Shown here piece after piece: positions 26,052 to 46,532 of a stretch of 64,000 bases of DNA. Each line of letters starts with the position of its first letter. Position 1 is the stretch's first letter. This DNA comes from Candidatus Omnitrophota bacterium (GTDB taxonomy: Bacteria; Omnitrophota; Gorgyraeia; Gygaellales; Profunditerraquicolaceae): assembly GCA_026387335.1 (NCBI GenBank), contig JAPLLX010000002.1, positions 77,326 to 141,325 of the forward strand, in the 5' to 3' direction. The notes beneath the pieces were generated by a model, which worked only from the letters and a program-made list of their open reading frames with translations, had not been told where the DNA came from and ran no database searches. A program made the translations under genes and the position numbers.

Positions 26052-26450
26052 ATGAAATTAATCACCAGGAATACGGATTACGCATTAAGGGCGGTATGTT
26101 TTATGGCTAAACATAAGGGGAAGGTTGTTTCGGTCGCAGAATTGACCCGAAAATTACGGGTGCCCCGGCCGTTCTTAAGAAAGATACTCCAATCATTAAA
26201 CAGAAGCGGGATACTTAAGTCTCTTAGGGGACAGGGAGGCGGGTTCATCCTGGCGAAAGATGCGACGCAGATATTTCTAATGGATATAATGCGCATATTT
26301 CAGGGGAAATTGAGGCTAAACGATTGTCTGCTCAAAAAACTTATCTGTCCTAATAAAAGAAGCTGTCCTTTAAGAAAAAAGATCGCTAAAATTGAAAGTT
26401 ATGTGCTTAAAGAGTTAAGTGCTATTAATATAGCGTCATTATTGGAATAA
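26052..26450 (+). CDS. Rrf2-family transcriptional regulator (three Cys, probably Fe-S or redox sensing)
   Basis: Rrf2 wHTH N-terminus (MKLITRNTDYALRAVCFMA ... GQGGGFILAKD); C-terminal Cys residues. Confidence 0.85.
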   Translation: MKLITRNTDYALRAVCFMAKHKGKVVSVAELTRKLRVPRPFLRKILQSLNRSGILKSLRGQGGGFILAKDATQIFLMDIMRIFQGKLRLNDCLLKKLICPNKRSCPLRKKIAKIESYVLKELSAINIASLLE

Positions 26451-26698: not shown

Positions 26699-27094
26699 AT
26701 GGCGGATTTAAAAGATTTATTGCAAAACGCAGATTGGAAAACCGAAAAACATGTTCCGGTTATTGAAGCCCCGGATAAGATCAACAAGGGCGAACCAGTA
26801 AAGGTTACTGTCAGTGTTGGCAAGCAGGTAGCCCATCCTAATACCACTGAACACCATATTAGATGGATCGAGGTCTATTTTCTGGGCCAGGGAGAAAAAT
26901 TTCCTTATCAGCTAGGCAGGTTTGAGTTCTCCAGCCACGGCGAATCAGCCCAGGGGCCCAACACCAGCACTATTTTTACTCAGCCGGAGGTTCTGCTTAC
27001 TTTTAAAACTGAGAAAAGCGGGACGATCCTGGCCGTTGCTTATTGTAATATCCATGGTTTGTGGAAAAACGCAAAAGAAATCCAGGTTGAATAA
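26699..27094 (+). CDS. Superoxide reductase (1Fe-SOR / neelaredoxin-type)
   Basis: EKHVPVI, HPNTTEHHIRWIE and CNIHGLW iron ligands. Confidence 0.85.
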   Translation: MADLKDLLQNADWKTEKHVPVIEAPDKINKGEPVKVTVSVGKQVAHPNTTEHHIRWIEVYFLGQGEKFPYQLGRFEFSSHGESAQGPNTSTIFTQPEVLLTFKTEKSGTILAVAYCNIHGLWKNAKEIQVE

Positions 27095-27455: not shown

Positions 27456-27614
27456 ATGGATAAATACAAGTGCACTGTCTGCGGTTATATTTATGATCCT
27501 AGCCAAGGCGATTCTGTCGGGGGAATCCCCGCTGGTACGCCTTTTGATAAACTGCCCGCGGATTGGGTCTGTCCTGAGTGCGGAGTAGGCAAGGACATGT
27601 TTGAGAAGATTTAA
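27456..27614 (+). CDS. rub: Rubredoxin (52 aa)
   Basis: Not in the ORF track (under 60 aa). [15 protein letters not shown] ... [16 protein letters not shown] with two CxxCG knuckles; RBS AAGGAG. Confidence 0.9.
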
Positions 27615-37563: not shown

Positions 37564-39357
37564 ATGCATAAGATAAAGTGGCACGGCTTATTTTTTGCAA
37601 TAATTCTAGCGGGTACTTTTTCTTTTGCCTTGGCGCAGGATGATACCTCGACAGACTTAGATAGAATAGTTGTTTCTAAGAGCAGAAACTTGTTTTCAGG
37701 CGGGTATTCTTTAAGTGCTGCCGACCTAGAAGCCCTTCCGGCAAGCTCAATTATTGAAGCAGTAGGTTCATTACCTTTAGATTTACAGAGCCGCTCACCG
37801 CACTCAGGGATCCAAGCAGATTTTTCTTTACGCGGGTCAAGTTTTCAGGATGTGCTTCTTCTTCTTAACGGCCGGCGGATTAACGATCCCCAGACAGCCC
37901 ATTTTAATTCCGATATTCCCTTTACCCGCGCGGATATCTCCAAGGCCCAGGTTTTGCCTTCAGCTTCTTCATCGCTTTTTGGCCCGGACGCGATAGGAGG
38001 GGCGGTTAATTTCATTATTAAAAGGCCGCAAGAGAAAAAATACGTTTTAGAATTATCCGGGGGCCAGCATAACACTTTTTCAGGGCTTTTTAGCGCCAGC
38101 GATAAGATTAAAGACTTGGGGTTAAGGCTATCCATAGAGAGAGCGCAGTCATCCGGGTTCCATGAGGACACAGATTATAAAAAATTTACCACAAGTATCG
38201 CTTCTTCTCTAGCCTTGCCGTTGGGCTCCTTTGATTTTAATATGGGGTATCAGCAAAAGGAATTCGGAGCGTTTGATTTTTATACCCCCGGAAAAAATAA
38301 TCCTTCCAAGGAGTGGACAAGGACGTATCTTTTAGATACCGGATTCAATTTAGATAAGGATGGTTTGGTGATTAAGCCGAATTTTATCTGGCGCAGGCAT
38401 TTTGATAAATTCCAGCTGGATAAAACAGGGGTGAAAAGTAATTTTGTCAGTAATCACCGTAACGACACATATACACCGAGTATTTATTTTCAAAAGGAAT
38501 TTTTAAGCCTGGGCAAACTCGGTTTTGGCCTGGAATATGGAGATGAACGTATTACCTCCACTACTTTAGGCAGGCACAATAGGGAGCACAAAAGCCTATT
38601 TATTGATGACGCGCTAGATTTAACTCCAGCGCTTTCTTCAGGCTTATCTTTTCGCCTGGATGATTTTGACAGTTTTAATACAGCTTATACCGGCTCCTTA
38701 ACCTTGCGCTACGAAATCCTTAGCCAAAACTTTTTGCATTTTGCGGTTTCCCGGAATATTCGCGTGCCTTCTTTTACCGAGCTTTATTATAGCGATGACG
38801 GTTATACTATAGGTAACTCTAATCTTTCAGCCGAGAAGTCCCTGAATTACGAAATCGGTTACGAAATCAAAAAAGAGAGATTTTCCTTTAGCCCGACACT
38901 ATTCTTCCGCAGGGAGGATGATTTTATTGACTGGGTAATGGCTGGTTCAAGATGGCAGGCTAAAAACATTTCCGGCGCGGATGTGCTTGGGATAGAAACT
39001 CGATTCGGATGGGAAATAAATAAAATTGCTAGCGTAAATACCAATTATACCTATATTAATAAATTCACGAATAATGAGTACCTTTTTAAATACGGGCCCA
39101 ACTATGCCCGGCACCTGTGGAATACCGAATTTGTCTTCCAGCTTCCTTTCGGCGCTCAAAGTATAGGTTTTACCTATAAAAAGAAACCCGGTCGAGACGG
39201 CTGGTTTCTGCTTAACGCCCGCGCAAACTTCAATTTAAATAAAAATACCTCTTTATTTATTACGGGGACAAACCTGCTTAATACCGGTTATCAGGAGATA
39301 GAGGGGATACCTCAGCCCGGAAGGTGGGTAGATTCCGGATTTAGGCTTGAATGGTAA
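37564..39357 (+). CDS. TonB-dependent outer-membrane receptor
   Basis: Signal peptide; plug-domain motifs (DRIVVSKSR, GPDAIGGAVNFI); C-terminal barrel ending in ...LEW. Confidence 0.8.
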   Translation: MHKIKWHGLFFAIILAGTFSFALAQDDTSTDLDRIVVSKSRNLFSGGYSLSAADLEALPASSIIEAVGSLPLDLQSRSPHSGIQADFSLRGSSFQDVLLLLNGRRINDPQTAHFNSDIPFTRADISKAQVLPSASSSLFGPDAIGGAVNFIIKRPQEKKYVLELSGGQHNTFSGLFSASDKIKDLGLRLSIERAQSSGFHEDTDYKKFTTSIASSLALPLGSFDFNMGYQQKEFGAFDFYTPGKNNPSKEWTRTYLLDTGFNLDKDGLVIKPNFIWRRHFDKFQLDKTGVKSNFVSNHRNDTYTPSIYFQKEFLSLGKLGFGLEYGDERITSTTLGRHNREHKSLFIDDALDLTPALSSGLSFRLDDFDSFNTAYTGSLTLRYEILSQNFLHFAVSRNIRVPSFTELYYSDDGYTIGNSNLSAEKSLNYEIGYEIKKERFSFSPTLFFRREDDFIDWVMAGSRWQAKNISGADVLGIETRFGWEINKIASVNTNYTYINKFTNNEYLFKYGPNYARHLWNTEFVFQLPFGAQSIGFTYKKKPGRDGWFLLNARANFNLNKNTSLFITGTNLLNTGYQEIEGIPQPGRWVDSGFRLEW

Positions 39358-39372
39358 AAGATTATTGCTATA

Positions 39373-39672
39373 ATGTTATCTATGTTTATTCATGTTGTTT
39401 TATTCCAGGTTAAGCCTAAAGAAGTGGCCAAATACCGCAAGGATAGCCTGATGTGGGCCAGTTATACTAAGAAAGCTAAAGGATTTGTGGCGTATTTTAC
39501 TATGAAGCGTTACGGTCGCCTTAATCAATACGCTTCAGTGTATGAATGGGATAGAAAAGTTGATCACAACCGCTTTATGAAGAAATACCACGATTGGTTG
39601 GTAAGCAAATCCAAAGCCAAGGTAAAAGTGCTGGGTTATTATAACCTTAAAGGCATAGATAGGCTAAGGTAA
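39373..39672 (+). CDS. Small hypothetical protein (ABM/dimeric alpha-beta-barrel-like?)
   Basis: 99 aa with no clear motif. Confidence 0.3.
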   Translation: MLSMFIHVVLFQVKPKEVAKYRKDSLMWASYTKKAKGFVAYFTMKRYGRLNQYASVYEWDRKVDHNRFMKKYHDWLVSKSKAKVKVLGYYNLKGIDRLR

Positions 39673-39688
39673 AAATACCTAAAAAAAC

Positions 39689-39716
39689 TTGAAATTCGCC
39701 TATTTTATGGTATACT
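39689..39716 (+). promoter_or_regulatory. Sigma70-like promoter of the giant gene
   Basis: TTGAAA (39689-39694), 16 nt, TATACT (39711-39716). Confidence 0.5.
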
Positions 39717-39782
39717 TTCTTAAGTTTTAGGTAGTTAGGATTAGCGTTCCCGCTGGAGGGCGGAAACGCGGAGAAGTCTATA

Positions 39783-39830
39783 AACCAGAATGCCACGAAC
39801 AAGGGTCGGCTTTCTGGTTTTTTATTTTCC
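39783..39830 (+). terminator. Terminator-like hairpin inside the 5' leader of the giant gene (candidate attenuator or riboswitch expression platform)
   Basis: AACCAGAA (39783-39790) ... TTCTGGTT (39812-39819), then TTTTTTATTTT; it sits about 35 nt upstream of the RBS and ATG at 39866. Confidence 0.4.
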
Positions 39831-39865
39831 GGTATTATTAAAGAGATTAAAAAAGGAGTTAGGGA

Positions 39866-42800
39866 ATGAAAGTCAAATTAAGAAAAATCCTATCTTTAGC
39901 TTTAACCATTAGTTTACTTTTTCAGCAAATAGGTTTTGCCCAGATAGCTACCGAACTTAACCTGGTCAATCACTTCGCCAGGATGGCTAGCAGTCTCACA
40001 GTAGAGAAATTTCGGCCCCTGCACCTGCGTTATTTCTCTTACGACAACTTAAATGACAATTTCAAGGTATTGGTGGATAAAGGTGACTTCGAGAAGGGAC
40101 TGTCCCCGAAGGGGGCTGTCCCTGAAGAGAAACTTAAAGAAGAAACCAAAACCCTCCTTAGCTACTTCCTTGTAGGAGTTACTCTTCCAGATAGTATGTT
40201 CTGGGTTAACCTGCGCCCTGATTCCGAAGACCAGATAATAGACCAGTATCTGGAGAAGACAGATATAGGTAAGATAATGCTGGAAGCAGATCTCCAGCTA
40301 AAGAAAGACACCGCGCTAATGACTTCTCCGGCTACCCCTGAAGGTAGGGAATACTGGGATAGGCTCTATAAGAAGGCAGCCGAGCTTTATGGCTATGATA
40401 ATGTTAGCATACCTACCTTAACCCGGCCCTGGATAGTCCCCGGAGAAATAATTGTCCGGGAATCTCAAGACTCAGCCTATGTTTATAAAGCTAATCTTAA
40501 GGTAATGCTGGAGCAGGATTACTTAAAAGATTCTAGTAACTATAACTTTAAAGACAGCCGCTCCAAAGCCCTGAATGAATACTCATCCGAACTAATAAGG
40601 GAATTAATTATCCCTAAGCTCACTAAAGAAGTAAACTCCAGCAAAAGATACGCTCCTTTACGCCAGGTATATTACTCTTTAATCCTGGCCCGCTGGTTTA
40701 AACTGCGCTTTAGCGGCAAAACCGGCACCTATGCTTCGCTCATTAACACTAGGAATTTAACTAACTTAATATCTAAAGACTCCTGGTCCAAGACCGATTA
40801 TTTTAAACAATACCAAAAATCCTTCTCTGAAGGCGAATACAATATCCAAGAACCAGTGCGTACCCCTACAGGCCAGGTAATCAGGAGTTACTTTAGCGGC
40901 GGGATAGATGTAGCTAGTAGCGCTATTAATACTCAGAATGGCGTTAGTAATCTTAAAGCGGCGTTGCCCCTTTCTTTGTTTTCTCGAACCGGAGTCATAA
41001 TAGGAGGAAATGCCGCAAGGCCTTTTAGCGTAAATCTGCAGCCCGTTGTTGCCGCTTCAGTCGGCGCCGCCTCGCCGGTTAAAACCTCTAGCCCGATATT
41101 TACTCTTGATGATAGAAATGGGGTAGTCTTTTCTGTTTATCCCAGAACAGAAATAAGAGAGGATCAACTAAGAGAGGCGGCGGAGGTTTTGAAAAACCGG
41201 ATTTTTAACTATCCAAAAAATGGCAAGATTATTGATATTCAGCTAGTCCCTGGCTCTAAGCGGCAGATAGCTTATCCTACGCGCTGGAAAATAGTTATAG
41301 AGCATAAGCCTGATTTAGAAGAAACTCTGGTTACATTAGTAAATGATCAGGGCAAAGTTATTATTAATATAGGCTATTCTATCGATAGTAAAGCGCTCGA
41401 TTTACCAGAAAAACTTCTTAACGAACACCTGCAGATGGCATTGATTAGCGCCGCATCCAGAATAAGGTTTAATTCACTGGCCGCCGCCTCGCCGGTTAGT
41501 TCATTAGAAAATCAAGCATATCTTCTTGCTTTAACCTTGGGCATAAAAGATTCAGAAAGGAAGTATGTCGCGGTGGTATTTATGATGCCTTTGATAAAAG
41601 CCTTTATGGATAATAGTAATCCTCCTCCGACTTCAAGCCAGGCCAAAGAATTCTATCAGAGAATAATAAATAATACAGACAAGACAGTTTCAGTTGAAGT
41701 TTTAGCCCGGTCGTTTGCTTTCCTTTCAAATCCGAACGCTAGCTTGTCGGAAAAAGAAAAATTCAACAGCTCGCCGGTGACTTCAAATTTAGCTAAGGCA
41801 GTTGAGGAAGCGCAAAGCCAGTTGCCGGCAGATGTAAATGAACAGATTTTAAAGTTTATTGTTACCGGCGATGAAAATGGAAGAATACTTTATCCTATTT
41901 GGCCGCAAGATTCTGTTATGGTCGGACATGTCAGAGATGACCGGGCTGGATATTTTGCCAGAGGCCTGCAGAATAGAGGCTTTAAAAATTTATTAGGATA
42001 TATTAAATTTACCAATGATTTCCAAGGTAAAGCTGTTTTGTCCGAAGAAACTATCGCTAGTGTTCCAAATACTTTTTTTGAGAGAATATCCAACAAGGGG
42101 TATCAAGTGTTGGTGATTTCTGAAGATGAGAAGAAAAGCCATACGGGTAAAAACGCTGCCGGTAGGAAAAAGGACGGGCTTTTCCCCGGGCAAAAACAGA
42201 TTGTAATACCTATGCAGAAATCTGAAATGGCCTATGTAGATACTCCCCAGATGAAAATGAAAGAATGCGCTGACGAGGTATTAAATGGACTGGATGACGA
42301 TGCTACAGATTTTATTTTAGTTAATCTGCTAAGTTCAGATATGATGAAACACACCGGTAACTTCCAAGCGGCAAAAAAAAGTAATGAAATAACCGACCAG
42401 CAGATCGGAAGAATAAAAGAAAAGGTTGATAGAATAAAAAGCCATATTCTGGGTGATATGATGAAAGAAGTCAATAAATACTTATCTAGAGAAGAGGCCA
42501 GTCAGCTTTATGTTTTACTATTGAATAATTATGCTGAATTTTTAGCAAGGCTGAAGAATAAAAACCAGGAGCTCTATAAACGGATAAAAGATTTAGAAGC
42601 CAAAATTCCCATCTTTGTTATTACTGCTGACCATGGCGCTTCTGAGGCAGGTCTCACTGATAATCCGAAGGAATCCGACACTTTCCATACAGCCAATCCA
42701 GTGCCGTATATTATTTATGATCCCCTAAGAACTCAAAAATTAGCTTTAAAGTCCGGACAGACCATCAGGAATAACGGGGCTACATTATTACACCTATTAG

Positions 42801-45800
42801 GCGAAGAGATCCCCCAAGGGTCTGATCCCAGCTTGCTGCCTGATGATTATCAAGGAAGTAAGCGTAGGATCACGATGGCTGTTTTGGATGGCTGGGGTAT
42901 AAACCCTGATCAGAATTATCCCTGGGATGCTATCCGGCTGGCCAATACACCTAATTATGACTGGATGGTTGAGAATGCGTCTTTCACTCAGGTCCAAGCG
43001 CACGGTGAAGTGATCGGATTAAGAGGCCCATTATCTTTGGAAGAAGGTAGACACCATTTAAGAGGCCTGCAAGCAGGCCAGACTGACGTTGGCCACCTGC
43101 ATTTGTTCTCACTGAGAGAGATTAAACAACCTTTATGGTATGTAGACAGGCTTATCAAAGGCAGTATACGCGATGGCGTTTTTGATGAAAGCAAACCCGA
43201 AGTCCAGGTATTGGTAAAAGAATTACAAAGGGTTAAGGATAATAATTTGAGATTTCATTATATAACCATCGCTTCTGAGGGTGGAGTGCATTCTTCGCTC
43301 TATCATATGTATGCCTTGATGAGATTAGCTAAGAAAATCGGCTTAAGGCAGGATCAATTTATTATCCATTTTGCCGCTGACGGTAGGGATGTGCCTACGC
43401 GCACCGCGCATCTATACATTCAGGATGTTGAAAAACGCATTGAAGAAATTGGAATAGGCGTAATTGCAACGGTATTTGGCAGGGATATGTTCGTACGTAA
43501 GGATGGCGCAGAAAATATCACTAATCGCATCATTGATGTAATGGAGGGTATTAATCTGGATGCGCAGGATGTCACGCAGGTAAAATCTGTCGCCAGCTCG
43601 GCGGTCACAGCAGTAGAATCTTTGAGAAATGATATTCTAACTAGGCTAAAAGAACGGATAAAAGATGATTCTGTTGTTAACCTGGTAAGGTCAAACTACT
43701 TATTTTATACGGCGAATACTCCTTCTAAATTAGCAAAGGCACTTGTTCAGATAGAAGAGAATCTGGATGGATTGATTATGTCTGCCACCGAAGAAAGATC
43801 GAGAGACCTGCAGACGCTCCAAGAATCAATAGAATCAGAACTGGCTAAACTTGTCTCCGTCGACTTGCCGGTGGAGACTATCAGTGAATTTGCAAAGATA
43901 GTTGAAAAACTGGCTGGTTATGGAGATGTAAGTTTTGATATATCGGGAACGGGAACTTTGAGAATACGCTATGCTGGTAATTTGTCTATGGTAGATAAGG
44001 TAGAAGCCGACAAGCTTCTGGTTAAGGCTAGAAAATTAATAGTAGAAGTTTCTTCTATAATAGGAAAAAAGATAAGCCAGTCATATGTGATGAAATTCCC
44101 GCAGGGGACTTTAGCTGCTAAGATAAGGGAAGATTTACTGCTTGAAAAAGCAAGGATATCAGAAAGTTTCGCCAGCTCGGAGGTTACTTATATAGACATA
44201 AATGAAGTAAGGCCGCCGGATAAGAGTTTTACTTTTCAACCCACAAATGGAGTGAGAATTTTTATTAATAATCGTGTCAATTGGTATACTCTGCAATTGG
44301 CTAGGTATGAGCCGGGAAAGAAGAATTATTTGATATTTAAGATTGGCAATCAACCTGTTCATTACGCTTACCTGAGCAGTAATCTTACAATTGGCCAACA
44401 GGATGTTGTTAGGACTATAATGAGAAAAATAGAGAATGGAACTCAGCTGTGGACAGAAATAGACTTAATCCAAGCGTTGGAAAAAGCATTATCTATGTCA
44501 CAATATAAGCCTAAAACTCAAGAATTACCGTCACCAATTATAATAGAACCTATTGTAGATAATAAAATTAAAGTGGAGTCGGGTGATTCAGAGCGCGCCA
44601 GCTCGCCGGTGCAGAAGGAAGAAAGATCGAACTATCTATTCTCTGGGTTACAGGAGGCAACCTTAGATGCAATTGGGGATATCCAGGGATTGGCAAGTTG
44701 GGCGCCTTTAATAGAAGAAGGCCCCAGCGGCGTAGAGCTAGGTATGGATATTATAATGAAGGAATACGGTTTAGATTCAGATAAGCCTATTCTTACGCAA
44801 CGATTAGCCGAACCAGGTAATTTTAAAGAGCTTTTGGAAAAAATCGATAAATTATATGAGTTTTTGGAAAAAAAATTAGAGAGCTTTTCTAAATTACTCG
44901 CTGATGTTAAAGAACAACAAAAGAAAATAATGACCCAGCATATAAGTAGTGTTAGCGACCAGGGTAAGGGTATAGAAAAAAGTTCCGTTTATTGGGGGAG
45001 TGAGTTTGTTTTAGAAGTTGCAATTAATAACATTGAAATAGCAATGCTTAAGTTAAGGCAAGCTGTTGAGAAAGTCAAAGGAGATATAGCTATTGTACCC
45101 AACTCATATATCGGGACTAAATTAAAGGAAGGCGCCAGCTCGGCGGTAACCAGAGAGAAAAAAGAGTCAGTTAACCTTTTAGGCGGAAGCACGCAAAAAA
45201 GAGTGCTTAGGGTTTATGAAGAGAAGGGCAGAGATTTAATAGCTACAGCCCTAGCTACAGGCCTTACTTTGGATATTGTATCTGAGTATGTTAAGGACGC
45301 CAAGCGTAATCCGGCCAGCTCGGCGGTGACGGAAAAAATTAAGGAAACGTTTCGCCAAGGAGGACTTTCCTTGAGTGAGTATACTATGGATTATATCGCG
45401 AAAAGGTTAAGCTCCATATTAAAGGATGGCGATGATATTGATAGAGATACTGCTGCTAAAATATTAATTAGCGTATATGATAATAATAAGCTTGCGGGTG
45501 GAACTCGAGCCCTCGGTCAAGTGTTTGCAACGCTTAATGATGCCAGGGAATTGCGGGAAATGGTAAAATACATCCGCGATCAGAAGGATAAATCTGTTGC
45601 CAGCTCGGCGGTGCATCATAAAATAATCAACCTCTACGATTTTGATTCTATCAAGGCGAAGAAAATAGATCCAAGTATTTTAAAAAATAGATTCATAGAG
45701 AAAATAGAAGAATTAATAGCAGATGTAAGGGAAGGTAAGAGAAGAGAATTTGCCGGTGAGTTGATACGATTAGCGAAAGCTGATGAGAACCTTTATACGA

Positions 45801-46357
45801 TTTGGTTTACCGATACAACATGGGTAGATATTAGACCTCAAGGGACAGAGATAGATATTAATTTTAGGTGTCGAGCTGGAATAGAGCAAAGCGTTGTGTG
45901 GGATGTTAGGCGTTTGATTAAGCTTTCCCAGTCAGAATTGTTAGTAGGAACCGTCGGCTCGGCGGTGCAGACTCCTGAGGAGACCGCAAGTTCAGCGTTG
46001 ACTCCCGGCGGTATTGATTTCCGCGCTCTACCGATGAGCATCCAGCCGATGGGAAGTTTTGCGGGCCTGAATTTTAAGCTGCCGCAGTTGACTCAAGCGC
46101 AGCTTAAGCAAATCAATATTGAATCAGAGATGCAACAGGTTAAGAATCTGGTAGAATCAGGGATTGTTCCTTCCGGAGACAGGATTAAAGAGCTTATCGC
46201 CGCTTGCAGCCAGAAGGGGAAGATTAGTTATTATGTAGATAATCTATTACTCTGCCTGGTAGATATATGTAAACTTGAAGAGCAGAATGCCTTTGAAACT
46301 TCCCCGGAGCTAAGAGAGGCGCTGGCGATTGTTGATTCGCTTGGCGGGCAGGTATAA
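39866..46357 (+). CDS. Giant secreted modular protein (2163 aa) with embedded iPGM-like metalloenzyme segments and at least 10 recurring A-S-S-A-V motifs; function unknown
   Basis: RBS AAAAGGAG; signal peptide MKVKLRKILSLALTISLLFQQIGFAQ. Hallmark iPGM motifs are internal: ITADHGASE ... HTANPVP (aa ~918-940), MAVLDGWG (aa ~1004), AGQTDVGH, SEGGVHSS (aa ~1135), DGRDV, IATVFGR. See findings. Confidence 0.85.
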   Translation: MKVKLRKILSLALTISLLFQQIGFAQIATELNLVNHFARMASSLTVEKFRPLHLRYFSYDNLNDNFKVLVDKGDFEKGLSPKGAVPEEKLKEETKTLLSYFLVGVTLPDSMFWVNLRPDSEDQIIDQYLEKTDIGKIMLEADLQLKKDTALMTSPATPEGREYWDRLYKKAAELYGYDNVSIPTLTRPWIVPGEIIVRESQDSAYVYKANLKVMLEQDYLKDSSNYNFKDSRSKALNEYSSELIRELIIPKLTKEVNSSKRYAPLRQVYYSLILARWFKLRFSGKTGTYASLINTRNLTNLISKDSWSKTDYFKQYQKSFSEGEYNIQEPVRTPTGQVIRSYFSGGIDVASSAINTQNGVSNLKAALPLSLFSRTGVIIGGNAARPFSVNLQPVVAASVGAASPVKTSSPIFTLDDRNGVVFSVYPRTEIREDQLREAAEVLKNRIFNYPKNGKIIDIQLVPGSKRQIAYPTRWKIVIEHKPDLEETLVTLVNDQGKVIINIGYSIDSKALDLPEKLLNEHLQMALISAASRIRFNSLAAASPVSSLENQAYLLALTLGIKDSERKYVAVVFMMPLIKAFMDNSNPPPTSSQAKEFYQRIINNTDKTVSVEVLARSFAFLSNPNASLSEKEKFNSSPVTSNLAKAVEEAQSQLPADVNEQILKFIVTGDENGRILYPIWPQDSVMVGHVRDDRAGYFARGLQNRGFKNLLGYIKFTNDFQGKAVLSEETIASVPNTFFERISNKGYQVLVISEDEKKSHTGKNAAGRKKDGLFPGQKQIVIPMQKSEMAYVDTPQMKMKECADEVLNGLDDDATDFILVNLLSSDMMKHTGNFQAAKKSNEITDQQIGRIKEKVDRIKSHILGDMMKEVNKYLSREEASQLYVLLLNNYAEFLARLKNKNQELYKRIKDLEAKIPIFVITADHGASEAGLTDNPKESDTFHTANPVPYIIYDPLRTQKLALKSGQTIRNNGATLLHLLGEEIPQGSDPSLLPDDYQGSKRRITMAVLDGWGINPDQNYPWDAIRLANTPNYDWMVENASFTQVQAHGEVIGLRGPLSLEEGRHHLRGLQAGQTDVGHLHLFSLREIKQPLWYVDRLIKGSIRDGVFDESKPEVQVLVKELQRVKDNNLRFHYITIASEGGVHSSLYHMYALMRLAKKIGLRQDQFIIHFAADGRDVPTRTAHLYIQDVEKRIEEIGIGVIATVFGRDMFVRKDGAENITNRIIDVMEGINLDAQDVTQVKSVASSAVTAVESLRNDILTRLKERIKDDSVVNLVRSNYLFYTANTPSKLAKALVQIEENLDGLIMSATEERSRDLQTLQESIESELAKLVSVDLPVETISEFAKIVEKLAGYGDVSFDISGTGTLRIRYAGNLSMVDKVEADKLLVKARKLIVEVSSIIGKKISQSYVMKFPQGTLAAKIREDLLLEKARISESFASSEVTYIDINEVRPPDKSFTFQPTNGVRIFINNRVNWYTLQLARYEPGKKNYLIFKIGNQPVHYAYLSSNLTIGQQDVVRTIMRKIENGTQLWTEIDLIQALEKALSMSQYKPKTQELPSPIIIEPIVDNKIKVESGDSERASSPVQKEERSNYLFSGLQEATLDAIGDIQGLASWAPLIEEGPSGVELGMDIIMKEYGLDSDKPILTQRLAEPGNFKELLEKIDKLYEFLEKKLESFSKLLADVKEQQKKIMTQHISSVSDQGKGIEKSSVYWGSEFVLEVAINNIEIAMLKLRQAVEKVKGDIAIVPNSYIGTKLKEGASSAVTREKKESVNLLGGSTQKRVLRVYEEKGRDLIATALATGLTLDIVSEYVKDAKRNPASSAVTEKIKETFRQGGLSLSEYTMDYIAKRLSSILKDGDDIDRDTAAKILISVYDNNKLAGGTRALGQVFATLNDARELREMVKYIRDQKDKSVASSAVHHKIINLYDFDSIKAKKIDPSILKNRFIEKIEELIADVREGKRREFAGELIRLAKADENLYTIWFTDTTWVDIRPQGTEIDINFRCRAGIEQSVVWDVRRLIKLSQSELLVGTVGSAVQTPEETASSALTPGGIDFRALPMSIQPMGSFAGLNFKLPQLTQAQLKQINIESEMQQVKNLVESGIVPSGDRIKELIAACSQKGKISYYVDNLLLCLVDICKLEEQNAFETSPELREALAIVDSLGGQV
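41066..45967 (+). repeat. Dispersed direct repeats of a GC-rich 12-15-nt element inside the giant ORF
   Basis: GCCGCCTCGCCGGTT at 41066-41080 and 41483-41497. AGCTCGCCGGTG at 41769-41780. GCCAGCTCGG(C/A)GGT at 43592-43605, 44171-44184, 45134-45147, 45314-45328 and 45599-45613. GCCAGCTCGCCGGTG at 44597-44611. GGCTCGGCGGTG at 45956-45967. All are in the same frame and encode A(A/S)S(A/P/E)V. Confidence 0.8.
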
Positions 46358-46381
46358 AGCCGGTTTAGAGGCAAAATTTAG

Positions 46382-46409
46382 TTGACAATTGCATAATTTA
46401 GTGTATACT
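46382..46409 (+). promoter_or_regulatory. Near-consensus sigma70 promoter of cspA
   Basis: TTGACA (46382-46387), 16 nt, TATACT (46404-46409); about 120-nt 5' UTR. Confidence 0.6.
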
Positions 46410-46445
46410 TATTTAATAGTGAACAAGGGAGTAGAAGGTCTTGAA

Positions 46446-46481
46446 CCGTAAGGAGAAAGAGCGACACACCTTACGGTTTTT
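46446..46481 (+). promoter_or_regulatory. Perfect 8-bp-stem hairpin plus T-run inside the csp 5' UTR (candidate cold-shock attenuator or thermosensor)
   Basis: CCGTAAGG (46446-46453) / CCTTACGG (46469-46476), followed by TTTTT. Confidence 0.4.
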
Positions 46482-46532
46482 GTCTATTCTAGTAGTTTGC
46501 TAAAATTTTAGAAGGAAGGAGGAATTGCGGCA

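What the first reader, a model, noticed from the sequence alone, without database searches (positions are those of the whole stretch)
39866..46357. Giant secreted 2163-aa modular protein punctuated by at least 10 A-S-S-A-V motifs
A single ORF with a strong RBS and a classic signal peptide encodes a protein with no globally recognisable architecture. It is broken at irregular intervals (about 60-600 aa) by a short motif: VASSAVT, FASSEVT, RASSPVQ, GASSAVT, PASSAVT, VASSAVH, GSAVQT or AASPV. The motif positions bracket the embedded iPGM-like module: one copy lies just before it (aa ~635) and one just after (aa ~1243). This suggests the motif marks module boundaries, for example linker or processing sites of a polyprotein-like precursor. 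The gene sits directly downstream of a TonB-dependent receptor and has its own promoter and structured leader. Giant secreted proteins are a hallmark of some uncultivated lineages but are essentially uncharacterised.
Basis: seen in the sequence. Interest (0 to 1): 0.85.

Follow-up and report, generated by a model that had tools for sequence, protein, structure and literature searches.

The report
Cassette-built exported protein with junction repeats
The A-S-S-A-V motif is real: it is the translation of a 15-base in-frame DNA repeat that marks the junctions at which whole protein modules are swapped in a very large, undescribed family of exported proteins found only in the tiny Omnitrophota bacteria.

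Summary
The 2163-aa ORF (39866-46357) is real and matches an NCBI Omnitrophica MAG protein exactly. The motif is real: 6 strict and about 7 degenerate copies against 0.01 expected.

The protein belongs to an Omnitrophota-restricted family of at least 7,675 clusters at 50% identity. All members share a signal peptide plus a 320-aa N-terminal cap. Nearly all full-length ones also share a 115-aa C-terminal cap starting GGIDF. Neither cap has a Pfam, NCBIfam or PDB match. The middle varies and often carries central-metabolism enzymes.

Ten motif copies are one 15-nt direct repeat, CGCCAGCTCGGCGGT, always in frame. Across 80 family genes the motif is 12-55 times denser than in neighbouring genes, with biased codons (TCG 49% against 10% background).

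In eight boundary checks on four pairs of related genes, nucleotide identity flips between about 0.3 and 0.73-0.96 at the motif. The same cassette can sit at different positions. Recombination at the repeat is my inferred mechanism. Proteolytic processing is untested.

The iPGM module is circularly permuted, keeps the aligned metal and substrate residues, and has Thr in place of the nucleophilic Ser. A conserved hairpin and terminator leader precedes many family genes.

The parts
39689..39716 (+). Promoter-like site TTGAAA-16 nt-TATACT, with TG before the -10 hexamer
   Evidence: 10 of 12 consensus matches. This is a consensus match only, not proof of function.
39723..39826 (+). Structured 5' leader with three hairpins. 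The second (39744-39769) shows a UGGAGG loop. The third contains a terminator-like stem (39782-39820) followed by a U-run (39821-39826).
   Evidence: MFE -42.7 kcal/mol, z = -2.83. There is no Rfam match. Related leaders lie directly upstream of many other family genes.
39853..39858 (+). Ribosome-binding site AAGGAG, 7 nt before the ATG
   Evidence: Read directly from the sequence.
39866..46357 (+). Complete ORF of 2163 aa plus stop codon. It is a member of the Omnitrophota capped-cassette family.
   Evidence: (100% identical to NCBI MAG protein NTW18_02340)
39866..39940 (+). Sec-type signal peptide, aa 1-25. Predicted cleavage is after GFA. The c-region xGFAQ is conserved family-wide.
   Evidence: The twin arginine is not conserved (RK 113, RR 40, KK 30 of 254), so this is not a Tat signal. 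The helix appears in the model. Cleavage is inferred, not shown.
39941..40903 (+). Conserved N-terminal cap domain, aa 26-346, ending ..IRSYFSGG
40913..40927 (+). ASSAI (aa 350-354). This motif-like pentapeptide sits just after the N-cap and uses different codons (GCT AGT AGC GCT ATT).
   Evidence: the same position in L001, L002, L006 and L008 also uses ..AGC GCN AT.
41066..41080 (+). Junction motif AASPV (aa 401-405), GCC GCC TCG CCG GTT
   Evidence: D2 copy, printed one base upstream at 41065-41079. The shared block 398-555 with P0006 starts here.
41084..41098 (+). Degenerate motif TSSPI (aa 407-411)
41483..41497 (+). Junction motif AASPV (aa 540-544), GCC GCC TCG CCG GTT
   Evidence: D2 copy, printed at 41482-41496
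41765..41779 (+). Junction motif NSSPV (aa 634-638), AAC AGC TCG CCG GTG. This is the 5' boundary of the iPGM cassette.
   Evidence: identity to L012 flips from 0.21 to 0.80 here
41780..43591 (+). Circularly permuted iPGM-like cassette, aa 639-1242
41870..42814 (+). iPGM C-terminal half placed first. aa 669-852 align to 1EJJ residues 240-430 and aa 912-983 align to residues 434-500. It carries R690, R693, K756, D825, H829, D922, H923 and H941.
   Evidence: The assignment of catalytic residues rests on my own knowledge of the 1EJJ structure.
42422..42598 (+). Insertion of about 59 aa (aa 853-911), helical by composition, inside the phosphatase domain of the iPGM cassette
   Evidence: gap between alignment stretches 2 and 3
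42857..43504 (+). iPGM N-terminal half placed second. aa 998-1213 align to 1EJJ residues 2-192. It carries D1008, T1073 (in place of the Ser62 nucleophile), H1077, H1142, R1174, D1175 and R1206.
43592..43606 (+). Junction motif ASSAV (aa 1243-1247), GCC AGC TCG GCG GTC. This is the 3' boundary of the iPGM cassette.
   Evidence: identity to L012 drops from 0.73 to 0.40 here
44171..44185 (+). Junction motif ASSEV (aa 1436-1440), GCC AGC TCG GAG GTT
   Evidence: identity to L013 flips from 0.31 to 0.79 here
44186..44596 (+). Cassette aa 1441-1577. It is shared with L013/P0007 at 82% nt and 65% aa identity.
44597..44611 (+). Junction motif ASSPV (aa 1578-1582), GCC AGC TCG CCG GTG
   Evidence: identity to L013 drops from 0.84 to 0.31 here
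45134..45148 (+). Junction motif ASSAV (aa 1757-1761), GCC AGC TCG GCG GTA
   Evidence: The shared blocks with L005, P0005 and P0031 start exactly here.
45149..45313 (+). Short cassette aa 1762-1816. In L005, P0031 and P0005 the same cassette sits directly after the N-cap (aa 388-450).
45314..45328 (+). Junction motif ASSAV (aa 1817-1821), GCC AGC TCG GCG GTG
   Evidence: It falls at a helix break in the AF2 model.
45599..45613 (+). Junction motif ASSAV (aa 1912-1916), GCC AGC TCG GCG GTG
45953..45967 (+). Degenerate junction VGSAV (aa 2030-2034), GTC GGC TCG GCG GTG
   Evidence: The shared block with P0005 ends at aa 2035.
45986..46000 (+). ASSAL (aa 2041-2045). This is the motif copy that precedes GGIDF of the C-cap in most family members. 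It uses non-canonical codons.
46007..46354 (+). Conserved C-terminal cap, aa 2048-2163. It has a GGIDFRxLP..QPMGxF..LPxL stretch followed by a five-helix bundle (aa 2077-2162, nt 46094-46351).
   Evidence: pLDDT above 90 for the bundle, coil for the GGIDF stretch. Foldseek against the PDB finds nothing at E <= 0.1.

Best explanation
The gene encodes one member of a very large family of modular, Sec-exported proteins found only in Omnitrophota. Every member has the same chassis: a conserved signal peptide, an N-terminal cap of about 320 aa, a variable run of cassettes, and a C-terminal cap of about 115 aa.

The cassettes include helical or beta modules of unknown function. In many relatives they include whole central-metabolism enzymes. 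In this protein the enzyme cassette is a circularly permuted iPGM.

The A-S-S-[A/P]-V motif is the cassette junction. It is the in-frame translation of a short conserved DNA word, consensus GCC AGC TCG SCG GTN, repeated in direct orientation at each junction.

Shown: related genes differ by whole cassettes, and homology breaks at this word.

Inferred, DNA level: recombination between these short direct repeats adds, deletes, duplicates and exchanges cassettes while keeping the reading frame. This could happen within a gene or between paralogues, by microhomology or unequal exchange, or through an unidentified site-specific enzyme.

Inferred, protein level: the small-residue pentapeptide acts as an inter-module linker. 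It may also serve as a recognition or processing site.

Inferred from sequence only: the protein is exported by Sec. The N-cap and C-cap then handle anchoring, sorting or assembly, and the cassettes are the payload. The iPGM cassette keeps its metal and substrate residues with Thr as the likely nucleophile, so it probably still works as a phosphomutase or phosphatase.
For: Family and chassis:
- 956 hits, and wherever a source names the organism it is Omnitrophota. They share only the first ~18% and last ~6% of the query and carry different enzymes: PGK, enolase, TPI, GAPDH, PGM/PMM, PEP synthase, transaldolase, transketolase, guanylate kinase and others.
- The N-cap profile finds 7,675 cluster representatives, always at residue ~1-345.
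- 447 relatives occur in GTDB species representatives. In the 79 loci listed, most record titles say Omnitrophota/Omnitrophica; the rest say 'uncultured Planctomycetales', 'bacterium' or, in one case, Deltaproteobacteria.

Motif is real and family-specific:
- 6 strict copies against 0.0125 expected.
- ASSAV and ASSPV are the third and 18th most frequent 5-mers outside the N-cap in the 120 listed homologues; in the 79 fetched loci ASSPV is third and ASSAV seventh.
- Density is 1.48 per 1000 aa in family genes against 0.12 in neighbouring ORFs. For the strict form it is 0.55 against 0.01.

DNA word:
- 10 copies of a 15-nt direct repeat lie in this gene.
- All 22 exact AGCTCG[GC]CGGT copies in 1.25 Mb of related loci are inside family genes, on the + strand and in frame.
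- Codon bias over 190 instances: GCC 64% against 26% background, TCG 49% against 10%, GCG 60% against 23%, CCG 59% against 30%.
- Motif copies with the same amino acids have identical codons in 29% of pairs within a gene and 40% within a genome. The figure is 8% between genomes and 0.18% for random codon choice.
- Conserved N-cap residues show no such within-genome excess.

Junction role:
- Shared blocks of this protein start and end on motifs.
- Offsets between alignment ends and motifs peak at 0 for starts and -4 for ends.
- Eight inspected boundaries in four gene pairs flip between 0.21-0.40 and 0.73-0.96 nucleotide identity at the motif.
- The same cassette sits at aa 1718 in L023 and aa 847 in L031.
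- The N-caps of those pairs are 73-88% identical, so the genes are related and differ by whole cassettes.

iPGM cassette:
- The permuted order and retained residues are shown. The same permutation occurs in P0038 and P0034.
Against: - No recombinase, integrase or silent cassette array lies next to the gene. Neighbours are housekeeping genes, and flanking ORFs in the related loci lack the motif.
- 12-15 nt is short for RecA-type recombination, so the enzymology is unknown.
- Codons at the motif vary between species, and identity there is only moderately above that of conserved N-cap residues. Protein-level selection clearly acts too.
- Breakpoints at linkers could partly reflect survival of in-frame, foldable recombinants rather than targeting of the repeat.
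- Several multi-enzyme relatives (P0038, P0073, P0070) have few motif copies, so not every module boundary carries one.
- Only about 13-15% of local-alignment ends lie on a motif.
- Export is inferred from sequence alone. Export sits oddly with a cargo of enzymes that act on phosphorylated cytoplasmic metabolites.
- The AF2 model places two motif copies (aa 1757 and 1912) inside low-confidence helices.
Confidence: 0.6

Rival explanations
1. Polyprotein processing. The motif is the recognition or cleavage site of a dedicated protease. After export the precursor is cut into separate modules, and the iPGM cassette is released as a free enzyme. It is compatible with the junction role and could be true in addition to it.
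For: - The motif lies between independently shuffled modules and flanks the enzyme cassette on both sides.
- Its flanks are polar and linker-like.
- A copy sits just after the N-cap and another just before the C-cap in most members. Cuts there would free the payload from the chassis.
- A preprint on giant Omnitrophota proteins proposes post-translational cleavage by C39 and S8 peptidase domains (10.1101/2023.11.21.568195).
Against: - There is no protease domain in this protein or in its neighbours.
- Selection on a cleavage site does not explain the biased synonymous codons or their within-genome homogenisation.
- Several multi-enzyme relatives have hardly any motif copies between their enzymes.
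- No proteomic data could be consulted. Kizina et al. 2022 is not held in the library.
Confidence: 0.2
2. Pure protein-level linker or short linear motif. The pentapeptide is a preferred flexible linker, or a docking or modification site such as O-glycosylation. It travels with module ends by descent. The DNA word has no recombinational role, and breakpoints fall on motifs only because recombinants joined in linkers are the ones that fold and survive.
For: - The amino-acid motif is conserved while codons vary between species.
- Motifs sit in coil or at helix breaks near the C-cap and at aa 1817.
- No recombination machinery is linked to the gene.
Against: - The rarest Ser codon, TCG, is used at the third motif position (the Ser before Pro/Ala) five times more often than background. 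GCC, GCG and CCG are 2-2.6 times enriched.
- Codons are homogenised within genomes at the motif but not in the N-cap.
- Homology breaks fall within the 15-nt word itself, not merely somewhere in the linker.
Confidence: 0.15
3. Translational punctuation. The conserved codon string, with two consecutive NCG codons, slows the ribosome at module boundaries. Each module of a very long exported chain can then fold or be handed to Sec before the next one emerges.
For: - TCG followed by GCG or CCG is strongly preferred.
- TCG is the rarest Ser codon in the window's genes, at 9%.
- The copies sit at module boundaries.
Against: - The first two preferred codons, GCC and AGC, are the commonest Ala and Ser codons.
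- The tRNA complement of the genome is unknown; there are no tRNA genes in the window.
- Pausing does not explain why homology between related genes breaks at the word, or why the peptide itself is conserved.
Confidence: 0.05
4. Artefact. The long ORF is an assembly chimera or a run of fused pseudogene fragments, and the repeats are assembly joins.
For: None was found. The idea was considered because the gene comes from a metagenome-assembled genome.
Against: - Composition is even across the gene.
- The reading frame is uninterrupted over 6.5 kb.
- An identical protein lies on a 148-kb contig.
- Hundreds of independent assemblies show the same chassis and motif.
- By my own knowledge of assemblers, a 15-nt repeat is shorter than typical assembly k-mers.
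Confidence: 0.01

Closest known systems
Polymorphic toxin systems with demarcation motifs: CdiA with VENN, and Rhs/YD proteins with PxxxxDPxGL (Poole et al. 2011, PMC3150448, found; the mechanism as stated is from my own knowledge)
   Same: A conserved, exported chassis is joined to swappable sequence at a short conserved peptide motif. The coding sequence of that motif is thought to provide the homology for module exchange. The result is mosaic genes whose homology breaks at the motif.
   Different: - Here there are many junctions per gene, not one.
- The variable part is internal, between two conserved caps, rather than C-terminal.
- The payload is metabolic enzymes and unknown modules, not toxins.
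- No immunity gene, orphan cassette array, TpsB partner or T6SS gene is linked.
'Multi-enzyme metabolic cluster' class of very long Omnitrophota proteins (bioRxiv 10.64898/2026.06.07.730766), and the giant Omnitrophota genes of West-Roberts et al. (bioRxiv 10.1101/2023.11.21.568195)
   Same: Same phylum. Many unrelated metabolic Pfam domains sit in one polypeptide that begins with a signal peptide. Post-translational cleavage has been suggested for the giants.
   Different: - Those studies cover proteins of at least 10,000 aa. They do not mention the shared N-cap, the C-cap, the junction motif or its DNA word; the word 'motif' occurs 0 times in the 2026 text.
- This family spans 450-7391 aa.
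- Whether the giants use the same junction was not tested.
Cofactor-independent phosphoglycerate mutase (iPGM; PDB 1EJJ; TIGR01307; PF06415 plus PF01676)
   Same: The cassette at aa 639-1242 aligns to both halves of iPGM and keeps the metal and substrate residues.
   Different: - It is circularly permuted, with residues 240-500 placed before residues 2-192.
- It carries an insertion of about 59 aa.
- Thr replaces the nucleophilic Ser.
- It scores 209 bits against a TIGR01307 cut-off of 330.65.
- It is embedded in an exported 2163-aa protein.
Cassette-based antigenic variation and shufflons, such as Borrelia vlsE with 17-bp direct repeats flanking the cassette region, and the R64 pilV shufflon with 19-bp sfx sites (from my own knowledge)
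   Same: Short conserved DNA repeats lie in frame inside a coding region and delimit exchangeable coding segments.
   Different: - Those systems work within one locus, with silent donor cassettes or a dedicated Rci recombinase, and they vary a surface epitope.
- Here the repeats are all direct and are spread over many paralogues. No donor array or recombinase is evident.

Membership tests
Omnitrophota capped-cassette protein family (unnamed; no Pfam or NCBIfam model) | N-terminal signal peptide with conserved ..LLFQQxGFAQ, followed by the ~320-aa N-cap ending ..YFSGG | tested here: met
   (the profile built from the query and relatives matches 7,675 representatives at their N-termini)
Omnitrophota capped-cassette protein family (unnamed; no Pfam or NCBIfam model) | C-terminal cap: GGIDF-R-x-LP..QPMG..LPxL..PSGxRIKE.. 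followed by a helical bundle | tested here: met
   (about 115 of 119 hits align here)
Omnitrophota capped-cassette protein family (unnamed; no Pfam or NCBIfam model) | Variable middle made of cassettes separated by [AS][SG]S[PA][VIL], encoded preferentially by GCC AGC TCG SCG GTN | tested here: met
Cofactor-independent phosphoglycerate mutase (iPGM, TIGR01307) | Whole-protein score above the curated cut-off | tested here: not met
   209.2 bits against a cut-off of 330.65. For NF003897 it is 143 against 862. The Pfam domain models do pass: PF01676 at 102 against 24.3 and PF06415 at 92.7 against 27.
Cofactor-independent phosphoglycerate mutase (iPGM, TIGR01307) | Canonical domain order: phosphatase N-part, transferase domain, phosphatase C-part | tested here: not met
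   aa 669-983 match 1EJJ residues 240-500 and aa 998-1213 match residues 2-192. This is a circular permutation.
Cofactor-independent phosphoglycerate mutase (iPGM, TIGR01307) | Nucleophilic Ser62 and the Mn and substrate ligands | tested here: inconclusive
   D1008, H1077, H1142, R1174, D1175, R1206, R690, R693, K756, D825, H829, D922, H923 and H941 are kept. Ser62 is replaced by T1073. Residue roles come from my own knowledge of 1EJJ, and activity was not assayed.
Polymorphic toxin systems (CdiA/VENN, Rhs) | Variable C-terminal toxin followed by a cognate immunity gene | tested here: not met
   The C-terminus is the conserved cap. The downstream gene is mnmA-like. No toxin domain was found.
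Polymorphic toxin systems (CdiA/VENN, Rhs) | Short conserved motif at which homology between alleles or paralogues breaks | tested here: met
   This is an analogy of mechanism, not homology.
Proteolytically processed polyprotein | Protease in cis or encoded nearby, and demonstrated cleavage at the motif | not testable with these tools
   No protease domain was found in the protein or its neighbours. Cleavage needs proteomics.
Omnitrophota long 'multi-enzyme metabolic cluster' proteins (2026 preprint) | At least 10,000 aa with many distinct metabolic Pfam domains | tested here: not met
   This protein has 2163 aa and one enzyme module. Relatives carry up to 4-7 enzyme families.
Transcription attenuator or riboswitch-like leader | Conserved aptamer-like fold whose closing helix competes with an intrinsic terminator | tested here: inconclusive
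   - In 15 related leaders the GGAG-loop hairpin has covarying stems, and AAUCCGG can pair with the CCGGAUU arm of the terminator.
- The window's own leader is a divergent variant at 23 bits.
- The ligand or binding factor is unknown, and there is no Rfam match.

The most novel reading that the evidence does not exclude
Omnitrophota possess a dedicated in-frame cassette-exchange system. A specific 12-15-nt DNA word, read as A-S-S-A/P-V, would be the target of an as yet unidentified recombination activity. That activity would shuffle whole enzyme and adaptor modules among dozens of paralogous capped genes per genome. The result would be a combinatorial repertoire of exported proteins that place central-metabolism enzymes (PGK, enolase, GAPDH, TPI, iPGM and others) outside the cytoplasm, for example at the contact site with prey or host cells. 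This would be a bacterial counterpart of exon shuffling, tied to the predatory or parasitic lifestyle of these nanobacteria.
Probability: 0.25. Interest if true: 0.92.

Novelty: new variant of a known kind. Interest (0 to 1): 0.8.

Why it matters
Omnitrophota are widespread ultra-small bacteria thought to live as predators or parasites. Their many long proteins are largely unexplained.

This analysis gives thousands of those proteins a common plan:
- two conserved caps with no match in Pfam or NCBIfam, no PDB fold match for the N-cap, and no significant Foldseek hit for the C-terminal region;
- a payload of swappable cassettes;
- a simple sequence rule for where the cassettes join.

The rule has three practical uses. 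It makes the family easy to find and to cut into modules for structure prediction. It points to a concrete way of generating protein diversity that can be tested with population metagenomics. It also sharpens an odd question: why are glycolytic and related enzymes fused to a signal peptide in these organisms?

If those are the cell's only copies of such enzymes, ideas about where central metabolism happens in these cells would need revisiting. The permuted iPGM and the conserved leader RNA are further handles for experiments.

Tried and rejected
- **Known RNA in or before the gene.** Rfam with permissive thresholds over 39300-46500, and gathering thresholds over the whole window, found nothing.
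- **Minimal N-cap plus C-cap members.** The shortest hits (453-574 aa) lack the C-cap and look like fragments or different ends. No conclusion was drawn.
- **Tat export of folded enzymes.** Rejected because the twin arginine is not conserved.
- **RNA hairpin formed by the motif.** GCC-AGCUC-GGC gives only a 3-4 bp stem, which is lost in the CCG variant (reasoned). Rejected.
- **Frameshift site.** By inspection of the word there is no slippery heptamer. Rejected.
- **Recent tandem duplication as the source of identical codons.** Rejected. Flanks of the copies are unrelated, and the Val third position varies while the four preceding codons are fixed.
- **Other family members, or a linked recombinase or secretion system, in the window.** tblastn with both caps finds only this gene. 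Neighbours are housekeeping genes.
- **Literature.** No paper in the library joins Omnitrophota, signal peptide and phosphoglycerate kinase. Kizina et al. 2022, which has the only proteome of a cultivated relative, could not be read.
- **Covariance model of the leader.** It recovered only its training set plus three weak hits, so it adds no independent instances.

Full report
**1.

The ORF at 39866-46357 (+) is intact and encodes 2163 aa. GC content is even along it. A 100% identical protein, 'hypothetical protein NTW18_02340', is deposited from a 148,683-bp contig of a Candidatus Omnitrophica MAG. It is therefore not a chimera.

AAGGAG lies 7 nt before the ATG. The N-terminus has a basic n-region, a 12-14-residue hydrophobic core and GFA|Q, the pattern of a Sec signal peptide.

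ASS[AEP]V occurs 6 times against 0.0125 expected from shuffles. With degenerate forms (AASPV twice, TSSPI, NSSPV, VGSAV, ASSAI, ASSAL) there are about 13 copies. Copies at aa 634-638 and 1243-1247 bracket the iPGM-like module. The upstream gene is a TonB-dependent receptor.

**2. The protein has a recognisable plan shared with thousands of relatives**

A search of 5.8 billion proteins gave 956 hits. Wherever a source names the organism, it is Omnitrophota.
- The hits align to the query only over aa 1-~350, at 55-76% identity, and over aa ~2040-2163.
- Between these ends they carry different contents: phosphoglycerate kinase, enolase, triose-phosphate isomerase, GAPDH, phosphogluco/mannomutase, PEP synthase or PPDK, transaldolase, transketolase, cupin-type glucose-6-phosphate isomerase, guanylate and adenylate kinases, HEAT or TPR repeats, or nothing recognisable.
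- A profile of the N-terminal domain, searched without a word index against 1.84 billion cluster representatives, found 7,675 proteins (6,333 at E <= 1e-30). The match always sat at the N-terminus, in proteins of 450-7391 aa.
- In GTDB species representatives, 447 stretches encode a relative. In the 79 loci listed, most record titles say Omnitrophota/Omnitrophica; others say 'uncultured Planctomycetales', 'bacterium' or, once, Deltaproteobacteria.
- Two family genes can sit in tandem (L027).
- The window holds one member.

Neither cap has a Pfam or NCBIfam model.
- The C-cap folds as a confident five-helix bundle (pLDDT above 90). It is preceded by an extended GGIDFRxLP..QPMG..LPxL stretch. 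Foldseek finds no PDB hit for it.

The signal peptide is unusually conserved (..LLFQQxGFAQ). It lacks a conserved twin arginine, so Sec export is the expected route, not Tat.

**3. The motif is a family signature**

ASSAV and ASSPV rank third and 18th among 5-mers outside the N-cap in the 120 listed homologues. In the 79 fetched loci ASSPV is third and ASSAV seventh. The general form is [AS][SG]S[PA][VIL].

It is 12 times denser in family genes than in other ORFs of the same loci (1.48 against 0.12 per 1000 aa). For the strict form the ratio is 55 (0.55 against 0.01). Copies lie shortly after the N-cap, 3-15 residues before GGIDF of the C-cap, and at irregular intervals in between.

**4. Underneath the peptide is a DNA word**

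In this gene all six strict copies read GCC AGC TCG; the fourth codon is GCG in four of them, CCG in one and GAG in one, and the Val third base varies. Four degenerate copies share ..TCG SCG GT. The flanks are unrelated.

The repeat finder independently reports 10 copies of a 15-nt direct repeat, CGCCAGCTCGGCGGT. The 14-mer with up to 2 mismatches occurs 9 times in the window against 0.31 expected. Seven of these are in this gene, on the + strand; the other 2 are two-mismatch minus-strand hits elsewhere. TCG is the rarest Ser codon here at 9%, and the chance of GCC AGC TCG GCG given ASSA is 0.0025 per copy.

In 79 loci from other genomes:
- All 22 exact AGCTCG[GC]CGGT copies are inside family genes, on the coding strand and in frame.
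- Over 190 motif instances the codons are biased against the background of the same genes: GCC 64% against 26%, TCG 49% against 10%, GCG 60% against 23%, CCG 59% against 30%.
- Same-peptide copies have identical codons in 29% of pairs within a gene, 40% between genes of one genome, 8% between genomes and 0.18% under random codon choice.
- Conserved Ala, Ser, Pro and Gly of the N-cap show 31-37% codon identity, with no within-genome excess.

So there is a nucleotide-level preference and some within-genome homogenisation at the motif. Both are moderate, and they sit on top of clear protein-level conservation.

The ASSAI just after the N-cap and the ASSAL before the C-cap use other codons. They belong to the conserved caps.

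**5. The motif is where cassettes join**

Blocks of the query shared with other members start and stop on motifs:
- aa 1436-1586 with L013 1082-1232;
- aa 1757-1819 with L005 388-450, where the cassette follows the N-cap directly;
- aa 1895-2035 with P0005 1281-1421;
- the iPGM block 615-1244 with P0002 1500-2138, which has motifs at 1523 and 2136.

Across the family, 12.7% of alignment starts and 14.9% of ends lie on a motif, against about 3% for random positions. The offset peaks are exactly 0 and -4.

At DNA level, cassettes shared at 77-94% identity between genes of different MAGs are bounded by motifs. Eight inspected boundaries show identity switching between 0.21-0.40 and 0.73-0.96 at the word. 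The same cassette is at aa 1718 in L023 and aa 847 in L031.

The N-caps of these pairs are 73-88% identical. The genes are therefore relatives that have gained, lost or replaced whole cassettes at the junctions.

The reading that fits all of it best is that the in-frame direct repeats are themselves the recombination junctions. That step is inferred. No recombinase or donor array is linked, and selection for foldable in-frame joins could add to the pattern.

**6. The iPGM cassette**

aa 669-983 align to residues 240-500 of B. stearothermophilus iPGM (1EJJ), and aa 998-1213 align to residues 2-192. This is a circular permutation with a ~59-aa insertion.

By my knowledge of 1EJJ, all metal and substrate residues are present. 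The exception is Ser62, which is Thr1073. The iPGM modules of P0038 (Ser kept) and P0034 have the same permuted order, so the permutation is old within the family.

The module fails the TIGR01307 cut-off (209 against 330.65 bits). I do not file it as a canonical iPGM, but a phosphomutase or phosphatase activity is likely.

**7. The leader**

A promoter-like site (39689-39716) is followed by a leader that folds better than every one of 200 dinucleotide-preserving shuffles (z = -2.83). It has a UGGAGG-loop hairpin and a terminator-like hairpin with a U-run.

Similar leaders precede many family genes. In 15 of them:
- the GGAG-loop hairpin has covarying stems;
- a 5' AAUCCGG can pair with the CCGGAUU arm of the terminator, the layout of an attenuator or riboswitch.

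A covariance model hits only sites directly upstream of family genes, but it adds no independent instances. There is no Rfam match. Its ligand or binding factor is unknown.

**8. What is known**

Two preprints describe giant Omnitrophota proteins and a 'multi-enzyme metabolic cluster' class of at least 10,000 aa. They note signal peptides and suggest cleavage. Neither mentions the caps, the motif or the DNA word.

The nearest mechanistic analogues are the VENN and Rhs demarcation motifs of polymorphic toxins (PMC3150448), and in-frame repeat-delimited cassettes such as vlsE or shufflons (my own knowledge). This system differs from them in several ways: many junctions per gene, two conserved ends, a metabolic payload, and no linked immunity gene, donor array or recombinase.

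**9. Verdict**

- Observation: confirmed.
- Interpretation: partly supported. Module boundaries are supported. Processing is untested.

Best explanation, confidence about 0.6: this is a member of a huge undescribed Omnitrophota family of exported capped-cassette proteins, in which A-S-S-A/P-V and its DNA word form the cassette junction. Recombination at the word is inferred.

What the exported enzyme payload does remains open. The most pressing question is whether these are the cells' only copies of the glycolytic enzymes.

Noticed in passing
window 39723-39826; also L004:625-718, L009:447-539, L033:9896-9986, L070:8292-8380 and 11 more: A conserved 5' leader lies directly upstream of many family genes. 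It has a hairpin with a GGAG loop and covarying stems, a conserved UGCCACGG junction, and an intrinsic-terminator-like hairpin whose 5' arm (CCGGAUU) can instead pair with an upstream AAUCCGG. This is the layout of an attenuator or riboswitch. It has no Rfam match. The GGAG loop resembles a CsrA-type site (my own knowledge).
   Followed up: partly
L019, L020, L023, L026, L030, L031, L039-L050: about 130 nt upstream of the family genes: A second group of family genes lacks that leader. Instead they share a different conserved upstream block, AGCGCTTTCCCAAAAC..CTTGAA..CTTACCTATATAGTATACTT..GGCTGATAAACC, which looks like a conserved promoter plus operator.
   Followed up: no
window 41870-43504; P0038 aa ~2400-2990; P0034 aa ~900-1540: Every iPGM module inspected in this family is circularly permuted in the same way, with the C-half before the N-half. 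The window's copy has Thr instead of the nucleophilic Ser, while P0038 keeps Ser.
   Followed up: yes
L027 3913-8892 and 8951-16207: Two family genes lie in tandem, 59 nt apart. Only the first has the leader RNA. By eye the second carries PGK-like and enolase-like modules.
   Followed up: no
window 39383-39673 (+): By my translation of the raw sequence, a small ORF of about 96 aa (MLSMFIHVVLFQVKPKEV...) lies between the TonB-dependent receptor and the promoter of the large gene. It was not listed by the ORF tool, which I ran at a minimum of 100 aa over this region, and it was not searched.
   Followed up: no
window 26699-27094 and 27456-27614 (+): By eye these are a superoxide-reductase-like ORF (..KTEKHVPVIE..) and a rubredoxin-like ORF (CTVCGY...CPECG), next to an Rrf2-like regulator ORF at 26052-26450. 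Together they suggest an oxidative-stress cluster typical of anaerobes. The identification is from memory and was not searched.
   Followed up: no
window 39866-46357: The protein is extremely poor in cysteine (0.2%). The few Cys residues cluster in the conserved C-cap (..AACSQKG..LLLCLVDICK..), and these positions recur in relatives.
   Followed up: no
L050 10001-10543 and 10619-13882: A family gene appears split by a frameshift or stop within the N-cap. It is either a pseudogene or an assembly error.
   Followed up: no
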